Part shown: positions 14,811-32,430 of the stretch, piece after piece
Position numbering within the stretch: position 1 is the stretch's first letter
Layout of the letters: every line of letters starts with the position of its first letter
Assembly (NCBI GenBank): GCA_963726195.1
Contig: CAVSBO010000003.1
Location: 832,001-896,000 of the forward strand
Reading direction: 5' to 3'
Length of the DNA: 64,000 bases
From: Candidatus Thorarchaeota archaeon
GTDB taxonomy: Archaea > Asgardarchaeota > Thorarchaeia > Thorarchaeales > Thorarchaeaceae
Position numbers and translations under genes: made by a program
Notes under the pieces: generated by a model
Seen by the model: the letters and a program-made list of their open reading frames with translations, nothing else
Database searches by the model: none
Told to the model about the DNA's origin: nothing

Positions 14811-14876
14811 AGGAATTGGTAACCCCTTGACCTTTCGCCCGTGGTCGCACGAATGAAATCAAGGGGTTCAATTCCT
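14811..14876. repeat. 66-bp long imperfect inverted repeat flanked by ATGG direct repeats
   Basis: AGGAATTG/CAATTCCT, AACCCCTTGA/TCAAGGGGTT, TTTC/GAAA and CGTG/CACG stems; ATGG at 14807-14810 and 14877-14880. Confidence 0.85.
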
Positions 14877-14905
14877 ATGGTTGACTGTTTATGTCTCCTT
14901 CTGCC

Positions 14906-15092
14906 GTTCATTGTGAGTTGGACAAAGTTGGACACAGGAGTCTTCGTCCGCCCAGAAACGGCACTGGGCTCAAACTCCTTGAGGTCAGGTTCGTGTCGCT
15001 TCAACCTCAATGACTGAATTCCTCATTGAGGCTTATGTACTCCCACAGTTTCATGTCCATGTTTGTCCAGATTCTCGGCAGCTGCCGCTGAA
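14906..15092 (-). mobile_element. 187-bp non-autonomous IS607-family mini-element (MITE-like) related to the 22972-31116 element
   Basis: Minus strand: GG|TTCAGCGGCAGCTGCCGAGAATCTGGACAAACATGGACA...AGCCCAGTGCCGTTTCTGGGCGGAC...TGTCCAACTTTGTCCAACTCACAATGAAC|GG. Both ends match the large element, with GG at 15093-15094 and 14904-14905. Confidence 0.88.
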
Positions 15093-15508
15093 CCTAAATA
15101 GTCGGCGAGCATGATTCCTGTCGCCGTCAGGCTTGCCTGAAGCCCTCTGGTTGCCATGTCGCCTCCGACTAGCAGTCCCATGTCGATCAAAGCGCGAAGG
15201 TTCCATTTGACGGTACTATATGGAAGGCTGCTTCTGCGTGATACCTTATCGGCAAGGCCTGTGACTGTCAGTTTGTGAAACCTAAGCAACCAGGCAGTCA
15301 TCCTCAGTACCGTCTTTTGAGTCTCGCTCATCCGAACATCTGCCAGTGTCAGAAATGCTGAGGCAAGGCTCTCAAAAGAAGGCTTCTCAGTCGGTTTGGC
15401 TTCTAACTCAGGTGACTCACGGCCACCAGAGAACGAATCCACCTCGTCGGCGGATTTGGCACCCACCACTTGTCTGAGCGACCCGACATCGATGGGCATT
15501 AGGTACAC
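15023..15508 (-). CDS. Winged-helix DNA-binding protein; last ~22 aa come from the inserted mini-element
   Basis: TVTGLADKVSRRSSLPYSTVKWNLRALIDMGLL HTH pattern; reading frame enters the mini-element at 15092. Confidence 0.7.
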   Translation of the reverse strand: MYLMPIDVGSLRQVVGAKSADEVDSFSGGRESPELEAKPTEKPSFESLASAFLTLADVRMSETQKTVLRMTAWLLRFHKLTVTGLADKVSRRSSLPYSTVKWNLRALIDMGLLVGGDMATRGLQASLTATGIMLADYLGSAAAAENLDKHGHETVGVHKPQ

Positions 15509-22262: not shown

Positions 22263-22971
22263 GTGATGCACTCATCAGAATCGAATACCGACAGACGATT
22301 GAGAATCAGCCATGGTCGCACTTGCAATTGCCCTCCGAATCACATCAACTGCCTGTCGGCCAAAGAGTGGATTCAGCATCAGATTGCTGTATGGGAGTTC
22401 TACTACGAGGCACGGGATGTGAGGGACAAGAACATTCATCCAGCGACCTATCCCATAGCACTTCCGTCAAAGTGCATATCTCTGTTCACTCATAAGGGTG
22501 AACTGGTGCTGGACCCATTCGTCGGTGTGGGAACAACACTCGTCGCAGCCAGAGACCTCGCACGCAACGCAGTCGGGTTCGACCTAAAGGCGGACTATGT
22601 CGATTTCTCCAACAAGCGGCTGAGCTCTATGTCGGACAATGAGACAACGCAGATTGCATTGTGCGATGACGCTCATAACATACCTTCGTACCTTGAGGAG
22701 GAAACTGTTGCCGTCTGTGTGACATCTCCGCCCTATGCAAACCTCCTGAATCGCCGCAGACAGAACAAGAGTATGAGGGGCAATCTCAGGAAGGATGAAT
22801 ACTATCTCAAGGTACAGCAGTATTCTGACGATCCGAGGGATTTGGGCACCATGGATGCCGAGCCCTATGCGAAAACGCTAGGTGAAATCTTCGGTGGCAT
22901 TCTTCCTTTAATGCGACATAGAGCACACTGTCTTGTCAACATAACTGACTACTGGTGGGAAGACAGAAGGG
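22263..22971 (+). pseudogene. N4-mC/N6-mA DNA methyltransferase, 5' part (interrupted by IS607-family element)
   Basis: HPATYP, DPFVGVGTT (motif I), TSPPY (motif IV). The frame runs into the element left end after DYWWEDRRV. Confidence 0.9.
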
Positions 22972-22989
22972 TTGACAACAGCTGCCTAG

Positions 22990-23009
22990 AAGTTGGACAA
23001 TCTTGGACA
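22990..23009 (+). repeat. Left subterminal repeat: two TTGGACA motifs at 10-bp spacing
   Basis: TTGGACA at 22993-22999 and 23003-23009; 19/20 identical to the reverse complement of 31088-31107. Confidence 0.9.
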
Positions 23010-23048
23010 CCACAGAACTGAAGAGCCGCAGCGCGACTGACACGATGC

Positions 23049-23675
23049 ATGTTGAGTGTGTCAGCAGCTGCGGTCAGGGTTGGGGTCTGTGCAAAAACCA
23101 TCCGACGGTGGGACGACAGGGGTCTTCTCCGATGTTTCAGGACCCGAGGTGGTCACAGACGAGTGCCTCAGTCAGAAATTGAACGAGTCATCTCAGAAAG
23201 GGAGCCGAGAGCAGATTCTCATATGACCTGCTCAAGAGCAACAATCGTGTACGCACGAGTATCGTCCCACGGGCAGAAGGCCTCAGGTGACCTTGACAGA
23301 CAGGTCGGCGAACTGCTCGCAAGTTCTGGCGAGGCATCTCCTCTTGTCCTCCCTGACGTCGGCTCCGGACTCAACATGAGGCGCAGGGGTCTATGGCAGC
23401 TGATACATGCTGCAGAGAGAGGACTCGTCAACCGGGTGATTGTCACTCACAGGGACAGACTGGCCCGCTTCGGGACCGAATTGATTGAGCATATCCTCTG
23501 CCTCCATGGCGTGGCCGTCAATGTCCTTCACGAGAACCGGGACATGACTCCTCAGGAAGAAGTGGTCGCCGATCTGATAGCACTAATTGCATCGTTCTCC
23601 GGACGTATCTATGGGCTTAGAGGTGCCATCCTCAGGGCCACAAGAGACCCGCTCAGACAAAGTTCTACTTCTTGA
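23049..23675 (+). CDS. tnpA: IS607-family serine recombinase transposase
   Basis: N-terminal MerR-like HTH (KTIRRWDDRG...TRGGHRR), catalytic YARVSS, DVGSG, THRDRLARFG, IASFSGRIYG. Confidence 0.95.
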   Translation: MLSVSAAAVRVGVCAKTIRRWDDRGLLRCFRTRGGHRRVPQSEIERVISEREPRADSHMTCSRATIVYARVSSHGQKASGDLDRQVGELLASSGEASPLVLPDVGSGLNMRRRGLWQLIHAAERGLVNRVIVTHRDRLARFGTELIEHILCLHGVAVNVLHENRDMTPQEEVVADLIALIASFSGRIYGLRGAILRATRDPLRQSSTS

Positions 23676-23692
23676 AAAGGGACGCGGTCCTC

Positions 23693-23731
23693 CTCACGAT
23701 TTCTCTCCAGCCCCGGTGGAGAGACCGTGGG
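23693..23731. terminator. Hairpin between convergent tnpA and cargo gene
   Basis: TCTCTCCA (23702-23709) / TGGAGAGA (23717-23724), extended by CTCACG/CGTGGG; terminator function is inferred. Confidence 0.4.
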
Positions 23732-23784
23732 CTTCAAGCTGTTTCTCTACTGCGTTTTCGGTTTTTCCGTCTTGAAACCTTGCG

Positions 23785-26700
23785 TCACTCCTGATTTCCA
23801 GAAGCTGCACCCTGTTCATGAGCCTTCCGGACATCTCTAACCACATCAGGGACCTGCTTCCTCAATACCTCGCCAAGGTTCTCAATGCTCTGGAGTCGAG
23901 GCACTATTTCGAGCTCCACAGCCTCTCTTACTTCTCGCACCGCTTGTTGTACACCTTCGCCGAGCAGGATCTTCGGGTCATCATAGAGCATTCCCGATGC
24001 TGTACGAGTTCCATCGGTTTCTTCACTTACCCAATAGATTGCCTGATTCTGAGAATACAAGGTCACTGTCCACGTCGCTGGCTCCTCCGCGAACTCTTCA
24101 TCATGGCGACCAAGGTGTGTTCCAGCATGATTCAGCCAAGATGTCACTCGCCTGATGAACTGCTGTTTGTTCCTTATGGAGAAACCGCTCATCTCGCCCT
24201 CTCTCATGCTTTCCCTTAGCATGTCTACGACTTCCTCGGCATCCTCTTCACTCTCAATCTCTATTGTCCGTGACAGGAGCGGCTCACGTCGACCCTGTCC
24301 GATAGGAAAGACAGCATATGTACAGCTTGTTTCAGACAGGTCAGAGAGCCGTAGTTCACAAGGTGGGCTTCTTGCCGAGTACCCATGTCCCTTGAGTTCT
24401 GACAGGATTCGCTTCCTGAGCGCTCCGTACTCCTCTATTGCATTCATTGGGATCCGGGACGTGATGACATTCAATATCCTCTGGCACTCTTTCTCCGCGC
24501 CGTGGCCGTGCACCAACTCGATTGTCTGGGGAGTTTCCGTAAGGAATAGTCCTGTGATTGTCGACTGTGCTTGCCACTCGACATACTTCGGCTCTGTACA
24601 TGACAGGCCGACCAGCCAAGTCTGTTCTCTCACTCTCAGATAGGTTCCGGGCTCTAGAGGTTTCAATGACAGACCGTTCCTCCGAAGGAACATGCGGACG
24701 TACTGCTCCTCATGATACACCACGCTTTCATCTTCCCCAGAACCCTAGGCATGACGATGGCAAGTCTGTACAATCGCCCTGCATAGACTCTCCCTGGGGC
24801 AAGGAGCCCATTCACAGCTTCTCCGGTCATCGGTCTTCCAAGCTGTCGCTTTACTTGATTAGGACAGTCTGGCGGCAATGATATCCGCCAGCAGGCACCG
24901 TGATCGTACTCCTCACTATAGGGCGATGGGACAGATCGACTGGTCATGTTCAATGCTCACCTTGAGGGTCCCGGCCTCTTCGAAGAACCCGGACACTCGT
25001 GCAGGGAGTTCCTCCACCTCAGTTCGTGCAGCCTTGAAAGTGACATATGGTCCAATGAAATCCAGTTCTCCGTACACGATATCATCGAAGACACTCCAAG
25101 TGACGTACGTGCCCGAGTCTGTGTACATGGGTCCTGAGTTTGTCATAGGCCATCTGAGGAGTGAAATGAGTTCTGCCGTGTATTCCACGTTCACCTCTTG
25201 GAGGATTTCATCATCGCCATCAACGAACCTAACTTGGCAGACATTATTCACCATCTCAAGACGCACACTGACAGATGCTGGTCGCGTGACAGCCTCGATG
25301 TACCTACGCAGAGAGGCTGCCACACGTTGGTAGAACGACTCTGGTAGTTTCGTTCCTTGAGAAGCTTCAGTAACAGAGGGCTTAGTGAAGGACTGTCTTA
25401 TGGCACGGAGATGACGGACTGATGAGTGCCCCTGTTCCACCAGCTCGAGGACTCCCGAGTAGACTCTCTCATGATCGTCCGTTTCCATGCTCCATGTTTC
25501 CAGCCCCTGTTCAGTTGGTCTGAATTCCATTAGGACTTGTGAGGACCCGAGAATCTCGTCGGGTGTCTGTTGTGTTAGTACCTCTTGTTTGGTCTCACTC
25601 CAGAGGAGCCCCTCCTTGTCTGGAGACTTGCTCATGAAGCAACCAATGAGCATGCGGGCCTCATTCTCGGGGTCCTGCATGACAAGCCACCAGGGAAGAG
25701 CAGTCTCATCCTCCGGTAGAAACCTGATTCCAAACGTCAGTCCAGCCGTCGTTCTTTCACTGGAAGTGACAAGCTCCACTGTCTTTGGAGGAAATGCAAC
25801 AATGGTTCCTGGCCTTGTCTTCAACCTATTGGGTGAGCGGTAGAGCCGCTGGGAATTGATTCTACCCAGGGTCGTGGCCACGTACCCCTTGCCGGCCCCT
25901 GTCTCAGGGTGTCGGTAGCGCACAAGGTCAAGGACACTTGGAGTCTTGGCGGGAGGCCCATCAAGAACTCGTACTTCGAAAGTCAGGTCATCAGGGGCTC
26001 CTCTGAACTCATGCATGACTGCGTCGAACCGTTCCTTGATGCTCTCTTTCGAGTCATCTGAGAGCATCTTGTCAGGCCACAGGCAGACAAGCCAAGGGAG
26101 CAAGGTCATCGAGAGGAGCCTTATCCTGCTGCGAGTAGCCTTGTCGGGTACGATGTCGTCCAGCCCTCTCTCCTGCACAACGAGTCCCTTCCCTTGGTTC
26201 TTGAACCGCCTTGACCAGCCCCTCAGCGGAGGTACGAGCACGAGCTCAGTGTTCATGTCTTCGGGAGAATGGCGAACGACTACTCGGATATCATCATGCA
26301 TTGGTGAGTCCCCGATGACTGGCAACCCACATTTCTCAGGCTCGACAGCATTCCTTGGTGCCACAGGTAGGTTCCAGACAATCTCAGTGACGACCTCAGC
26401 AAGAGATGAATTGTCATAGAATGGGAGAAGGGCTCTGGTTGCATATGGGACGGACTTCTCGGAAGAGGGCGTAGGTGCATCGAACCACAGGACCGTCGTC
26501 TTCTTGTTGTCTGGAAGACTGTCCAGAAGCTGGTCCATTACGACCTGTAGTCTATCTCGGTGGCTCTCCGGAGTTGCATCTCGCAGGGTATCTGCCCCCG
26601 TCACGATGACTATTGTGTGGCTATTGATGCCCTTGTCCAGCTCGAACGATGGTATGTCTCCACCCTCATAGAGATATGATAGGATTTCGTCAAGGCGCCC

Positions 26701-28745
26701 TCTAACCTCTATGCCTTGAAAGAACTCTCGAATATGGTCTGGTTGCGTCTTCGCCACCTCGTCATCAGAGTATCCTCTTGGCCTTAGGCGAAGGCGTGCC
26801 TCTGCAAGGTGGGGCTCAGTGAACTGACTTGCAAGGTCAAACCAAACAAACCGTGCACCGAGGTGGCTCTCTTTCATCTCATAGAGCATCTGAAGCCCAT
26901 GATAGTTCCGTGCATTCCAGGCGGCGGACTGGCCTGCAGATGTCGGGGATCTCCCTACAAGATAGAGAATGAATCTTCGTCTGCTCTCTAGGCTCTGCTG
27001 GAACGGGTTGTAGAGTGGTTTCCACGGGACGTCAATAGCCTCTCCCCCCTGCTTCTCAGGAACGACTTGCTCATGAATGATCAGAGCGACTCTGCTATTG
27101 CTTCCTCCAATAGGCCTGATGGCCGTTCTTTGAACTGCTCCACTCATCTTCTTGATGGATTCATAGGCCTTTACCAATAGCCCTTCAATGGTTCGTCTGG
27201 CTTTATTGATATCAGTAATGGACTCGATGACTATCGTTCCTCTTGGCACGTACCTTGGCTCCAGCCCAGTGGCTTCATGGTATCTCTCAGCCAGCGCTTG
27301 TGCATAGACCTCTACTTGTCGCTGTGCAGATGCGCTGGGAGCGGATTTGACAATGGCGTCCCATTCTTTGTCCTCAAGAGTTCGGTCTTCAACGGGTAGC
27401 TCAGCAACAATACGGGGAGGAAGCCCTCTATGCAATCTGGACTCAGATGATTTCTCTTCAGCATCAATATGCCACTGATGCCCCATGCGGGTCTTGATCT
27501 CGCAGACGAATGCTGGTCTCCAGAGGATTTGTTTCCCGTCAGCTGTGATGATCCTCTCTAGAAGTAGAATGTCCACTTTTCCCAACCCGGACTCAGTCAC
27601 TATCGCCAGCTCTGACACAATAGCATACTCAGAGGCCCCTACATACCTATGTCCATTGAAGATGACGTCATTCAGATGCCATGGGCTGGGAAAGAGGTCT
27701 GATATCCTTCTGTGCATTATCGACCCCTTTAGTTTCGCTCGACTGGTTGCCTGCTGTCTGATGTATTCGACATCAGCTTTGGTTAGGCACGGTTCTTCAA
27801 GACCGGGCGTTCTAATGAAACCCCTCTGTGTCAGTCGTTCAAGCTCTTGAAGAGCAGGATGATTGCCATAGAATGTCAGTGCTTCGTCGAGCTGGCTCCG
27901 AAAGAAGTCGAAGGACGTATTGGATGCTCCATGTTCGAAGTCCCCCATCACGCTCTTGGCCGCTTGCATCGTGGGGTGATACCCGGACTCTGAAATCAGC
28001 TCTTTCACTCTTCGAAGAGCAGCGTTCGCCCCCTTTCTGAACTCTGGTCTCCCACACTTGTGCTCTGAGTAGATGTATTCAAGATAAGGTCGTACAAGAA
28101 GGAGAAGGAGATTGCAGTACTTGGTGGTCTCGCTCACAGGCACATCACAGATTGTGCAGTAGGTGGCAAGATACTCACCATGACTCCGAGCAGCATCACC
28201 AAAGTCCATAGAGGGAAGGTCAGGATGCGTGAGCATGACTCGTGGCCCGAAGGAGGACCCCTCGTATCCTGCGACTCTAAACTCTTTTCTGTGAGATCCC
28301 GCTCGCACTGTACGTGTTCCAAATTGAGTGGCATCAGGAAATGGGAACTCTCTCTGTGAGAACTCTCTGAGGGTAGCACCACATGCATTAAACCGCTGGT
28401 TCAGAGGACCCACAGTGCCATCAGGATTCTTCTGTCTGGAGACCTCAGTATGCCCAAATTCAGCAGCCTTCTCATAGAGCATCTTGAGCATGTTGTTCCT
28501 GATTTGAGGTTCAGCCTTGAGAACGGACGAGCAGTCAGGGGTACCTCGTTCCTTGCTCAGAAGATAGACGTGTCGAGTCTCTGCCAAATCTCGTAGGAAC
28601 TCCAGTAATGAGCACAGGTCAGTCTGTTCTTCATGCTACATTGGAGTTTCACCGTCGAGGCAAGCCCTGTCCGCAATGCAGCTGACATGACACGTTCTGG
28701 ATGAACGGGTAGTGGCCGAACAGGACGCCCTCTTGGCCTTGCCAT
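23785..28745 (-). CDS. Giant cargo protein (~1,650 aa) with RecB/Cas4-type PD-(D/E)XK nuclease and degenerate RecA-like region; three frameshifts (~28637, ~24917, ~24735)
   Basis: ORFs 28557-28745, 24916-28587, 24663-24953 and 23785-24723 join seamlessly with single indels. Motifs: GSIMH, SELAI, GKVDILL, CEIKT, QRQVEVY. Confidence 0.75.
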
Positions 28746-28955
28746 CTCACTGATAGGATGGCATTGTGATATTTAAGTTCATTTTTTGGAAGTAACAGGC
28801 GCGGAACTCAGGTATCAAGAACTGGCTTGTTTCATAAAATCTGCCCCTTCTTCTTTATCAAACAAAAGGCTAACCTTTTACTCTGGTAATTATACGTCGC
28901 TTGCTTTTGTATGCCCTTATATCCCGACTTCAGCACCAATATGCGGTAGAGGCTG
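28746..28955. promoter_or_regulatory. AT-rich divergent promoter region for cargo gene and tnpB
   Basis: Clearly AT-richer than the flanks; TATA-like TTAAAT on the minus strand near 28770 and CTTATAT near 28918. Confidence 0.5.
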
Positions 28956-31087
28956 ATGAAGAGACAACCCCGGCGTCATCCCCGGGCGCCAAACCATGAC
29001 GTACAACAGGCAAGGCAACAAACAATGGATGATAATTATACGTCCTCTTCATCCACTTACCAAGCCGAGAAGTTCTCTCTCAACTCATATCCTAGAATTG
29101 TCGATCGAAAGGGAAAGAAAAGACGACCTGACCCTTCCTTCTCCGCAACACACAGACCCCCCGTCGAACAAGCACTAAGGGAGCTTGTCAGCGGCAACAA
29201 GTGCTCTGACATCGATATCCAGACACTTGAGCAGCACTTCGACAAGTATCTCAATGCAGTCAATCTCGTACTTGATGAGGTATACTCTGCTTCCGATCGC
29301 GCCCAGCGTGTCGGAGAGCGATTGCGCTCTTCAAGAGGACAAGGCTATGTAGTACTAAGAGAAGAGAACTTTCTAGAATGGAAACCGGACAACAGGTTCG
29401 GACAACTAGTCTATGAGCGAATGTATCGTAATGTCCTTGAGACCGCAGCCCGCATCGTGTTGGCTGACTACACGCGCAGGACACTGGTCAACTCACTAAT
29501 CACGATGCTGGCGAGTGATAGGCAGCAACTCAAGTCGCTCATGGCTCTCAAACGAATCCCTGCTCCTCTTGTCAGAAAGCTGCGAGCGACAGTCGGTGAA
29601 ACATCTGGTTCGTACTATCACTACGCGCTCACGGCATGCAAACAGCTTCGAAGAGCACTCGATGAACACCTCCTTGAGAGCTTCGGCGAGTCCACATCCA
29701 TCCGAAGACTAGCAAGGGACCGAGTTCGCGACCTTCTCGATACTCAATCGTCTGAATCAATCAAGGCCATGAATGCAACACTCAAGAAAGTGCAGAAATG
29801 GCACAAGACCGGTTTTCCATTCACTGCTCCCATTTTCAGACAAACCACCATGGACTTTACTGCATCTACTGAAAACACAACAGGACAAGGGTACTGGTTC
29901 ATGGAGGACTCCGAGCGACAGGACGAGGTTATCCTGTATATCAAGACCCCTCCCGGGGTCACAGGTCGTCAAGCCACGCCTGATTCACCGTACAAGAGCC
30001 AAACTCTTCGATTCAGGTTCCTCGACTGGTTGCCCCGAAAGGCAGCCCGTGCTCACAAAAAGGCAGAGGAGTCGAAAGCTCACGGTCATTTCAGCAGGGC
30101 CGTGGAGTCTGAATATCGTGCTGCACGCTTTGACGATATGACCCAACAGCTGAGGAACAATGTCAGACTGCAGTGCCTGAATAGACAACTTTCTTCTCTG
30201 AAGTCCAGAAAGGACATCGATGGAGAGAGGGTCAATGAACTGAAAGCCCAGATAACGGCGCTCAGACAGACCAGAAGGTGTGCCCCGCCCATCCTCAGTC
30301 TGCGAGGACACACTGCCACACTCATTATTCCCTTCCTATGCCCTGACAAACAGATGCTGAAACGAGTGCTGCCAACAGTCCCAAGGACAGGCAGGGCAGG
30401 AGTCGACCGGGGTCTGAGATATCCGGTGGTCCTCTCAGTAAAGAACGGTGCAAACAGTATGATGAAACAAAGATAGGAAGGCCAGAGTCATTCGAGAGAC
30501 GCGAGAGGCTCAGACAACGTACACGAGTCTTGATGTCACAGATCGTGCGACGACGGAACAACTGGGACAGGAAACGACCGATGCTGTCACCTCCGTCCTC
30601 TATTCTGAAACGGGAGAGAGAGCTGGAGGCAGTGTGGGCCAAGGTCCGACGCATCGACCGAGAAATCTCCCATCAGCTGGCCGCTGAGACCGTCTGGTTC
30701 TGTGAGCATCGTGGTGTCAAGACTGTCTACTTCGAAGACCTACGGTACTTCCAACCACAGGGCGGGTTCAAAACTCATTCATGGGAGCTGTCAACCAACC
30801 TCTGGGGGAAAATCATTGAAGGGGTCCGATATCGCAGACAGGCCCTAGGTCACAAGTACGGTGGAGTATGGACTGTGAACCCAGCCATGACATCCCAGAG
30901 ATGTAGTACCTGTGGTGAGAAAGGAGTGCGCGTCAGAGACAGTGATTCCACAGAGGAGGAGCACGGTGGGGAGTTCTTCTACTGCCCGAGCTGTGACCTC
31001 AAACTGCACGCAGACGTGAACGCGGCCAGAAACATCCTTATGATTCAACAACCCAAGCCCAGTGCCGTTTCTGGGCGGACTGCTTGA
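28956..31087 (+). CDS. tnpB: Large TnpB/Cas12-like RNA-guided endonuclease (~710 aa), one frameshift near 30452
   Basis: RuvC-I GVDRG (D484), RuvC-II YFEDL, VNPAMTSQRCSTC...CPSC zinc finger, RuvC-III HADVNAARNI. The downstream frame is open from ~30452 (QYDETKIGRPESF...). Confidence 0.88.
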
Positions 31088-31118
31088 TGTCCAAGTTTGT
31101 CCAACTTACAATGAACGG
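31056..31118 (+). ncRNA. Putative 3' part of TnpB omega/re-RNA scaffold (hairpin plus terminal pseudoknot)
   Basis: GCCCAG/CTGGGC stem; loop CCGTT is complementary to terminal AACGG; the 25-nt block is identical in the mini-element. The 5' boundary cannot be defined from sequence. Confidence 0.6.
31088..31107 (-). repeat. Right subterminal repeat: two TTGGACA motifs (inverted) at 10-bp spacing
   Basis: TGTCCAA at 31088-31094 and 31098-31104. Confidence 0.9.
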
Positions 31119-31351: not shown

Positions 31352-32430
31352 TCAGATTCCGAGAATGGGAAATACCAATTCCTTGACCTTTCGAACTGTT
31401 TCGCGCACGGTCATCCATATTTCTGCATCATCCTTGAAAGGCGGCTTTTGCTTGGGAGGAGAATACTTGCGACCTGACAAGCACGGATATGACCGTGGCC
31501 ACACCCCAGCACAAAGAGTCTGGATGGTACCCTCCGCCCGTCACTACTCCAAGTCGACCGTCACTCCACTTGTGTGCTGCATTGTGTATTCTCTCTGCGA
31601 TGTATCTTATCATCGTCGTCGTCAGTTTGAGGTGCGCTAGGCGATCCAGGTAATGTGCATCAAAGCCGGGCAGAAACAGGATGAACTGAGGACGAAAGAA
31701 ATCGACCAGCTTCGGGACCAGCTCGTCAAAGGCATATCTGTATACTCCATCGCCCGCGTCCATCGGAAATGGCATATTGATGTTGTAGCCGGAGCCACGA
31801 CCAGAACCGACCTCGTTCACGTACCCTTCGTGAGGGTACATCCATTCAGGATCCTCATGGAAAGAGATGACCATGACCTCCGGATCGTCGTAGAAGTACG
31901 CTTGGTCCCCATTTCCGTGGTGGACATCGAAATCCGCGACAAGTATTCGATTCAGACCATTCTGTTTGAGCTCGCTAACAGCGGCCGCGATATCATTGAA
32001 AACACAGAAGCCACCACCCTTATCGAACTTGGCGTGATGAAAGCCGCCGGTGGGAGACATAAAGTGCTCCACGCGTCCCGACATGATTGAGTGGACTCCA
32101 GTGACGGTAGCACCGGACAAAACTAGAGCATTCTCGTATATTCCTCTGAAACCCGGCGTGTCTATGTCAATCTCACCTTGGCCGGTCTCAGAAATCGTTC
32201 TGACCTTCTCAATGTATTCGGAGGAATGCACGCGCTCGAGAATGGGCACAGGAAGAGACTCTGCTTGTCAGCTCAGTTACGTTCTGAGATGCAAGCAGCC
32301 CGGCCGAATCCAAGAAATCCCTGATCATTCTGAAACGCCCGGGTCTCAATGGGTGCCGGTCACCATAGTCAAAACTGTCGAAGACCGGGCTCCACATGAA
32401 GCCGACTTGGCAGTCTCTCCTCGGGATCAC
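31352..32430 (-). CDS. Histone deacetylase/AcuC-family protein, two frameshifts
   Basis: HPLRPGR (upstream frame), GGFHHA, GFCVFND, DFDVHHGNG, GFDAH, GGGY; C-terminus continues in another frame to 31352. Confidence 0.85.

What the first reader, a model, noticed from the sequence alone, without database searches (positions are those of the whole stretch)
14906..15092. 187-bp non-coding mini-copy of the transposon, 8 kb away and inverted
Seen: the right end matches the large element at 27 of 29 terminal bases plus GG, and shares an identical 25-nt block (14946-14970 vs 31056-31080). The left end keeps GGTT...CAGCTGCC.AGAA..TGGACAA.C.TGGACA. The interior is under 100 bp, with a CCTCAATGA/TCATTGAGG hairpin (15005-15031) and no gene. 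It is again flanked by GG on both sides. This independently confirms the ends and the GG core. Inference: a non-autonomous element mobilised by TnpA in trans, which may also supply a second guide RNA (guide beginning CAGAAGGAGACATAAAC) to the large TnpB. Left-end divergence suggests it derives from a sister element.
Basis: partly seen in the sequence, partly recalled or inferred. Interest (0 to 1): 0.78.

Follow-up and report, generated by a model that had tools for sequence, protein, structure and literature searches.

The report
Guide-RNA-only IS607 mini-transposon in Thorarchaeota
This 186-base stretch is one of about 18 copies of a gene-less jumping element in an Asgard archaeon that keeps only the transposon ends, a promoter-like box and the folded guide RNA of a TnpB nuclease, a known kind of hitch-hiker seen here in a new host and transposon family.

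Summary
Real, and more than a lone mini-copy. The element (14906-15091, minus strand) is one of 18 protein-free copies in this genome and occurs in 18-20 of 24 same-family genomes (Thorarchaeota, by homologue names), in none of 16 more distant ones searched. It has IS607-type ends, an AT-rich box about 27 nt upstream of a structured RNA, and a 3' hairpin/pseudoknot shared with the ends of ~710-aa TnpB genes; pairings show compensatory changes. Best reading: a mobile stand-alone omega-RNA cassette, moved by TnpA and read by TnpB in trans. Expression and cleavage are untested. Corrections: the core register is off by one. Orthologues and an empty allele in this assembly show the target is AG-GG, so this copy's left core is GT, not GG, and the empty site is TATTTAG-GG-CAGAAGG. 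The neighbouring TnpB is frameshifted; the only intact cognate TnpB found lies on another contig. The mini belongs to its own old lineage, not a deletion of the neighbour. Guide-only elements are published for IS200/IS605, and this scan noted the same type in other Asgard genomes.

The parts
14906..15091 (-). Body of the protein-free IS607-type mini-element, 186 bp
   Evidence: Family alignment and orthologue register; model hit 142.7 bits
15092..15093 (-). Left crossover dinucleotide, GT in this copy (family consensus GG)
   Evidence: Register fixed by empty alleles and reading frames
15094..15095 (-). Host bases AG that, with the GG core, form the AGGG target / inferred TAM
   Evidence: Left-junction census AGGGT 35, TGGGT 12, GGGGT 9 of 70; TAM role inferred
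15052..15069 (-). Two left-end TGGACA repeats, 10-nt period (inferred TnpA sites)
   Evidence: same repeats at large-element left end (I14)
15032..15039 (-). TATA-like box, degenerate in this copy (TACATAAG)
   Evidence: AT fraction 0.85-0.99 at -28..-25 from the first helix in 72 copies; promoter function inferred
14979..15010 (-). Helix H1 (mini-specific 5' hairpin, GACAC in the loop); predicted RNA 5' end near 15010
   Evidence: 5 of 7 pairs with two-sided changes, 85% paired; MFE fold from 15010
14936..14979 (-). Helix H2 enclosing hairpin H3 (14950-14969) and a GGAC bulge (14945-14949)
   Evidence: Pairs 82-132, 83-131, 96-115 with 22, 12 and 11 two-sided changes and among the top 8 mutual-information pairs
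14956..14961 (-). H3 loop CCGUUU, pseudoknot partner of the last six scaffold bases
   Evidence: 96% paired in minis; C-G 17 / G-C 6 swap in 25 tnpB-linked ends
14915..14934 (-). Two right-end TGTCCAA repeats (inferred TnpA sites, also inside the RNA)
14904..14909 (-). GAAC + right core GG (14905-14904); 3' end of scaffold and pseudoknot strand
   Evidence: core inside scaffold by analogy with ISXfa1 and CboIStron
14887..14903 (-). Predicted guide (host flank, begins CAGAAGG; length approximate); holds the host gene's original last four codons and stop
   Evidence: Position inferred; no second TAM+guide match in the assembly; codons
15023..15508 (-). Conserved host ORF (no Pfam hit) whose 3' end is interrupted; now ends in 24 element-derived codons
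22972..31116 (+). Cognate 8,145-bp IS607 element with cargo, GG cores at 22970-22971 and 31117-31118, inside a DNA methyltransferase gene
   Evidence: Empty site restores WWEDRRVPAHM as in two orthologues
23049..23675 (+). TnpA serine recombinase with N-terminal MerR-type HTH; only resolvase-family gene in the assembly
   Evidence: Pfam PF00239 + HTH_17/MerR; genome search
28956..31087 (+). Large TnpB, frameshifted near 30450 just after the RuvC-I motif
   Evidence: tblastn against the intact 708-aa copy changes frame between residues 491 and 515

Best explanation
A non-autonomous IS607-family element that is a guide-RNA-only cassette. Shown from sequence: IS607-type ends, insertion into a G-GG target without duplication, many dispersed copies, an AT-rich box at fixed distance from a conserved structured region, and a 3' hairpin plus pseudoknot shared with the right ends of ~710-aa tnpB genes. 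Inferred: TnpA from a full element excises it as a circle and inserts it at NGGG sites; the internal promoter (or, here, read-through from the host gene) gives an RNA of about 107 nt scaffold plus flank-derived guide; a TnpB made elsewhere (intact copy on C16) loads it and cuts element-free alleles (AGGG + CAGAAGG...), and repair from the occupied allele keeps or spreads the insertion. The occupied site is spared because its right end reads ACGG, not AGGG. This particular copy may be partly crippled: its left core is GT and its TATA box is degenerate.
For: 18 minis versus 7 tnpB-linked ends in the genome; 18-20 of 24 family genomes. Empty sites: orthologues, an empty allele of a 91%-identical sibling in the same assembly (C9 vs C10), and a gene restored by removing two copies and flipping the middle. 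Structure in 72 minis: 90.6% paired, 18 of 34 pairs with two-sided changes, 0/500 shuffles, slid controls at most 47%. Core in 25 tnpB-linked ends: 94.7% paired, pseudoknot pair swaps C-G/G-C. TATA-like box at -28..-25, resembling boxes upstream of this genome's tRNA genes (by eye). Cognate TnpB has D475/E584/D677 invariant in 50 homologues and a Cas12f/TnpB fold. Published analogues: stand-alone omega-RNAs acting in trans (PMC10691335), PATE-like elements (PMC10055086), IS607 core/TAM/pseudoknot logic (10.1101/2023.11.20.567912 and PMC10711439).
Against: The structure was drawn by hand; RNAalifold recovered only H3 and the GGAC helix. Related sequences inflate covariation counts; pseudoknot pairs barely vary among minis; two helices overlap TnpA DNA repeats, which could explain their conservation. 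Helices H1/H2 are not matched in tnpB-linked ends, so TnpB compatibility is assumed. Two same-genus assemblies with minis gave no TnpA or TnpB match (83-93% complete).
Confidence: 0.75

Rival explanations
1. Plain DNA-level MITE: only the ends matter, and the interior is a neutral or TnpA-related spacer; no functional RNA.
For: The best-conserved 65 nt are also the transposase end; no RNA data; shuffle controls ignore relatedness.
Against: Two-sided changes in interior helices H1/H2 across genera and a fixed-distance TATA-like box are not needed for end recognition; C. botulinum TnpA needs only 40-60 bp ends; pseudoknot swap in tnpB-linked ends.
Confidence: 0.12
2. The RNA is made and binds TnpB but acts as a decoy or repressor (titrating the nuclease, or binding without cutting) rather than as a homing guide.
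For: Minis outnumber the one intact cognate tnpB 18 to 1 here and carry extra 5' helices.
Against: Catalytic triad invariant; scaffold ends exactly at the core with a variable flank; TAM-like AGGG versus self ACGG matches cutting IS607 systems.
Confidence: 0.08
3. Host-domesticated RNA or a removable intervening sequence (intron-like) that restores the host transcript.
For: Several copies sit inside genes; IS607 elements can carry introns.
Against: No meaningful Rfam match (best E 1.2); far too short for a group I intron (own knowledge); site is empty in orthologues and sibling copies are polymorphic or cause rearrangement.
Confidence: 0.05

Closest known systems
Stand-alone omega-RNA loci of OMEGA systems (Altae-Tran et al. 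2021, as summarised in PMC10691335)
   Same: Mobilised, effector-less guide scaffold in a genome that also encodes the effector; flank-derived guide; predicted action in trans.
   Different: Here the ends are IS607/serine-recombinase type, the host is an Asgard archaeon, and trans action is untested.
PATE-like protein-free IS200/IS605 elements of Geobacillus stearothermophilus (PMC10055086)
   Same: No protein genes, transposon ends kept, often encode an omega-RNA needing TnpA and TnpB in trans.
   Different: Those use Y1 (HUH) TnpA, hairpin ends and ssDNA transfer; this uses short subterminal repeats, a GG crossover core and a serine recombinase.
IS607-family TnpB systems ISXfa1 (PMC10711439) and C. 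botulinum IStron (10.1101/2023.11.20.567912)
   Same: MerR-HTH serine TnpA, GG core in a GGG target, right-end RNA whose last bases pair with a hairpin loop, self/non-self difference at position -3 (TGGG/TCGG there, AGGG/ACGG here).
   Different: Those are cis systems with small TnpBs; the cognate TnpB here is ~710 aa, full elements carry cargo, there is no intron, and the mini has its own promoter-like box and 5' helices in place of tnpB coding sequence.

Membership tests
IS607 family (non-autonomous derivative) | Cognate serine-recombinase TnpA with N-terminal MerR-type HTH | tested here: met
   Large element with the same ends encodes PF00239 + HTH_17/MerR; supplied in trans for the mini
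IS607 family (non-autonomous derivative) | Insertion by crossover at a GG dinucleotide, no target duplication | tested here: met
   Empty alleles give AG-GG for the family; this copy has GG right and GT left, a product type also reported for IS607 TnpA
IS607 family (non-autonomous derivative) | Short subterminal repeats at both ends instead of long terminal inverted repeats | tested here: met
   Two TGGACA at left, two TGTCCAA at right
IS607 family (non-autonomous derivative) | Excision as a circle and reinsertion by TnpA | not testable with these tools
Stand-alone omega-RNA | No effector or transposase gene, yet mobilised | tested here: met
   186 bp, 18 dispersed copies with unrelated flanks
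Stand-alone omega-RNA | Scaffold homologous to the cis RNA of a TnpB in the same genome, with terminal pseudoknot | tested here: met
   Mini model hits tnpB-linked ends at 45-79 bits; H3 and pseudoknot shared; 5' helices differ
Stand-alone omega-RNA | Scaffold abuts a variable flank that matches the empty site next to a TAM | tested here: met
   Flanks variable after the core; sibling guide matches AGGG + 16/16 at the empty allele on C9; TAM itself inferred
Stand-alone omega-RNA | Expressed as RNA | not testable with these tools
   Only a conserved TATA-like box; no reads
Stand-alone omega-RNA | Guides the nuclease in trans | not testable with these tools
   Needs biochemistry
PATE (IS200/IS605 derivative) | IS200/IS605 ends served by a Y1 transposase | tested here: not met
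   Ends match a serine-recombinase element
Classical MITE | Terminal inverted repeats with target-site duplication | tested here: not met
   Termini differ; empty sites hold one GG, no duplicated target
IStron / group I intron | Group I intron catalytic core | tested here: not met
   No Rfam match better than E 1.2

The most novel reading that the evidence does not exclude
The minis are an old, independently propagating guide-only lineage of Thorarchaeota IS607 elements that evolved its own promoter and 5' helices once freed from tnpB coding constraint, and they form a natural pool of ready-made ~107-nt trans guides for an undescribed ~710-aa Asgard TnpB; most of that nuclease's activity in the cell would then serve the parasites' sites.
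Probability: 0.4. Interest if true: 0.58.

Novelty: new member of a known kind. Interest (0 to 1): 0.38.

Why it matters
It extends guide-only hitch-hikers from IS200/IS605 to serine-recombinase IS607 elements and to Asgard archaea, and hands over a defined test set: one intact TnpA, one intact 708-aa TnpB with a predicted (A)GGG TAM, a compact scaffold with its own start, and 18 natural guides. No paper in the library held both 'Thorarchaeota' and 'TnpB'. The copies also reshape the genome (gene-end replacement here, an inversion elsewhere). The concept itself is published, so the gain is a new example and a candidate nuclease, not a new mechanism.

Tried and rejected
Rfam gave only chance hits. 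The promoter/terminator scan is bacterial and found nothing in the element. RNAalifold consensus was weak, so named pairs were counted instead. A blind longest-ORF test of the core register was ambiguous for intergenic or decayed sites and for the twin inserts on C8; only junctions with orthologues, an empty allele or a recognisable protein were used. Off-target search: no second TAM+guide site for this copy (best 12/16). The first structure string for the model was one character too long and was corrected. No canonical slippery heptamer was seen by eye at the TnpB frameshift. The left end of the C16 element was not found.

Full report
Observation. The 29 bases inside the right end equal the large element's at 27 positions, the 25-nt block 14946-14970 is identical to 31056-31080 in reverse, and the 9-bp hairpin at 15005-15031 exists. 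The element lies on the minus strand, 7.9 kb from the large element's left end. It has no gene of its own; it overlaps the tail of a host ORF (15508-15023) that is conserved in relatives.

Context. The large element (22972-31116) encodes a MerR-HTH serine recombinase, the only PF00239 gene in the assembly, two cargo ORFs, and a TnpB that changes frame just after its RuvC-I motif. An intact homologue of 708 aa lies on contig C16. Its D475, E584 and D677 are invariant in 50 homologues, and its model (pLDDT 78.6) matches Cas12f/TnpB/Fanzor2 structures. Named homologues come from Thorarchaeota, which places the genome.

Copy number. BLAST, an HMM and a covariance model agree on 25 right ends in the genome: 18 protein-free minis (183-187 bp where both ends are clear; one lacks its left end, one is decayed) and 7 ends attached to tnpB sequence. 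Matches occur in 18-20 of 24 genomes of the same family, up to 70 per genome, and in none of 16 more distant genomes searched. This copy's nearest relatives are three minis at 88-91% identity (support 98/98), within a clade that includes minis of another genome of the genus. The interior is shared among minis of many genera and is not matched in tnpB-linked ends. So the minis are a lineage of their own, not fresh deletions of the neighbour.

Boundaries. Left junctions read AGGGT, TGGGT or GGGGT in 56 of 70 related copies (the pattern used required GG), so either pair of Gs could be the core. Four independent checks pick the last two. (i) Removing the large element that way restores WWEDRRVPAHM in the methyltransferase, as in two orthologues. 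(ii) Contig C9 holds the empty allele of a sibling on C10, reading CGAAG-GG-TCGATG. (iii) Removing two inverted minis on C3 and flipping the 210 bp between them restores an oxidoreductase frame across both junctions. The body is therefore 14906-15091 and the left core is GT. Either it mutated after insertion or it came from a donor circle with a GT joint; C. botulinum TnpA gives exactly such left-altered, right-GG products, and fully mismatched cores block its excision (10.1101/2023.11.20.567912). Whether this copy can still excise is unknown.

RNA anatomy. In 72 aligned minis an AT-rich box sits at -28..-25 from the first conserved helix (AT 0.85-0.99), the usual archaeal TATA spacing (own knowledge). 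Downstream lie H1, then H2 enclosing a GGAC bulge and hairpin H3, the two right-end repeats, and GAACGG, which is complementary to the H3 loop. Counting these pairs gives 90.6% paired cells and 18 of 34 pairs with two-sided changes; no shuffle reached this and slid controls were at most 47% paired. Three of the eight top mutual-information pairs, found without assuming a structure, are H2/H3 pairs. In 25 tnpB-linked ends H3, the pseudoknot and the GGAC helix are 94.7% paired, and the pseudoknot's outer pair is C-G in 17 and G-C in 6. Caveats: relatedness inflates such counts, RNAalifold alone found only part of the fold, and two helices overlap TnpA repeats. This copy folds better than all 200 shuffles (z -3.5) and adopts H1-H2-H3 when started at 15010.

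Mechanism. Shown: ends, target, copy number, mobility by filled/empty alleles, conserved fold, intact TnpA and one intact TnpB in the assembly. Inferred: TnpA moves the mini in trans; its RNA loads on TnpB; TnpB cuts empty alleles at (A)GGG + guide, and repair from the occupied allele retains or spreads the element. The occupied site ends ACGG, differing from AGGG at position -3, as TCGG does from TGGG in the C. botulinum system. This guide has no other match in the assembly, as expected for a self-homing guide. I put the cassette reading at 0.75 for the family; this copy, with a GT core and a degenerate TATA box, is perhaps even odds to be active, though read-through from the host gene could supply RNA.

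Comparison and verdict. Stand-alone, mobile omega-RNAs working in trans are published (PMC10691335), as are protein-free PATE-like IS605 derivatives with omega-RNAs (PMC10055086). My literature searches found no natural IS607 case and nothing on Thorarchaeota TnpB, within a library that lacks most subscription papers. Earlier notes of this scan describe the same element type in at least 13 genomes, including Thorarchaeota; these are unchecked and not independent support. Verdict: real, a well-supported new member of a known kind; interest 0.38.

Noticed in passing
G000 C9 (whole 4.9-kb contig) vs C10:38799-45002: C9 is a near-identical variant of a C10 region (98-99.9%) that lacks the mini at C10:39218 and a further ~1.4 kb; probably a second strain. 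It is a perfect AGGG + guide target for that mini.
   Followed up: partly
L118 (G000 C3:337131-337716): Two inverted minis flank a flipped 210-bp middle of an NAD(P)H-binding oxidoreductase gene; undoing it restores the frame (one separate stop codon remains near codon 48).
   Followed up: yes
window 22972-31116; L131, L132, L134: IS607 elements here carry several kb of cargo. The 1223-aa cargo ORF (24916-28587, no Pfam hit) has homologues beside other tnpB copies on C16 (1689 aa) and C8 (broken).
   Followed up: partly
L136:1501-3627 (G000 C16:27041-29167): Intact 708-aa TnpB of a Thorarchaeota-wide ~710-aa clade; no close solved relative by sequence (best E 0.008, Cas12g). Its right end reads AACGA, not AACGG, as do several other tnpB-linked ends; its left end was not found.
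   Followed up: partly
L117 and L033 left junctions: Two other minis of this clade read GG-CG-TCA at the left junction, suggesting non-GG left cores are inherited through donor circles.
   Followed up: partly
window 14811-14876: Long hairpin 27 nt past the right end; single copy in the genome, and a similar inverted repeat is present in the orthologous empty locus L002, so it predates the insertion. A loosely similar stretch lies at 31368-31393.
   Followed up: partly
G000 C15:124460, C8:114215, C8:55321, C16:~21565: Left ends (or remnants) followed by a shared ~150-nt non-coding stretch beginning GGACACATCCAAG, different from the mini interior; role unknown.
   Followed up: no
L117 (G000 C8:162252-162708): Two minis in tandem about 80 bp apart; the register there could not be resolved.
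   Followed up: partly
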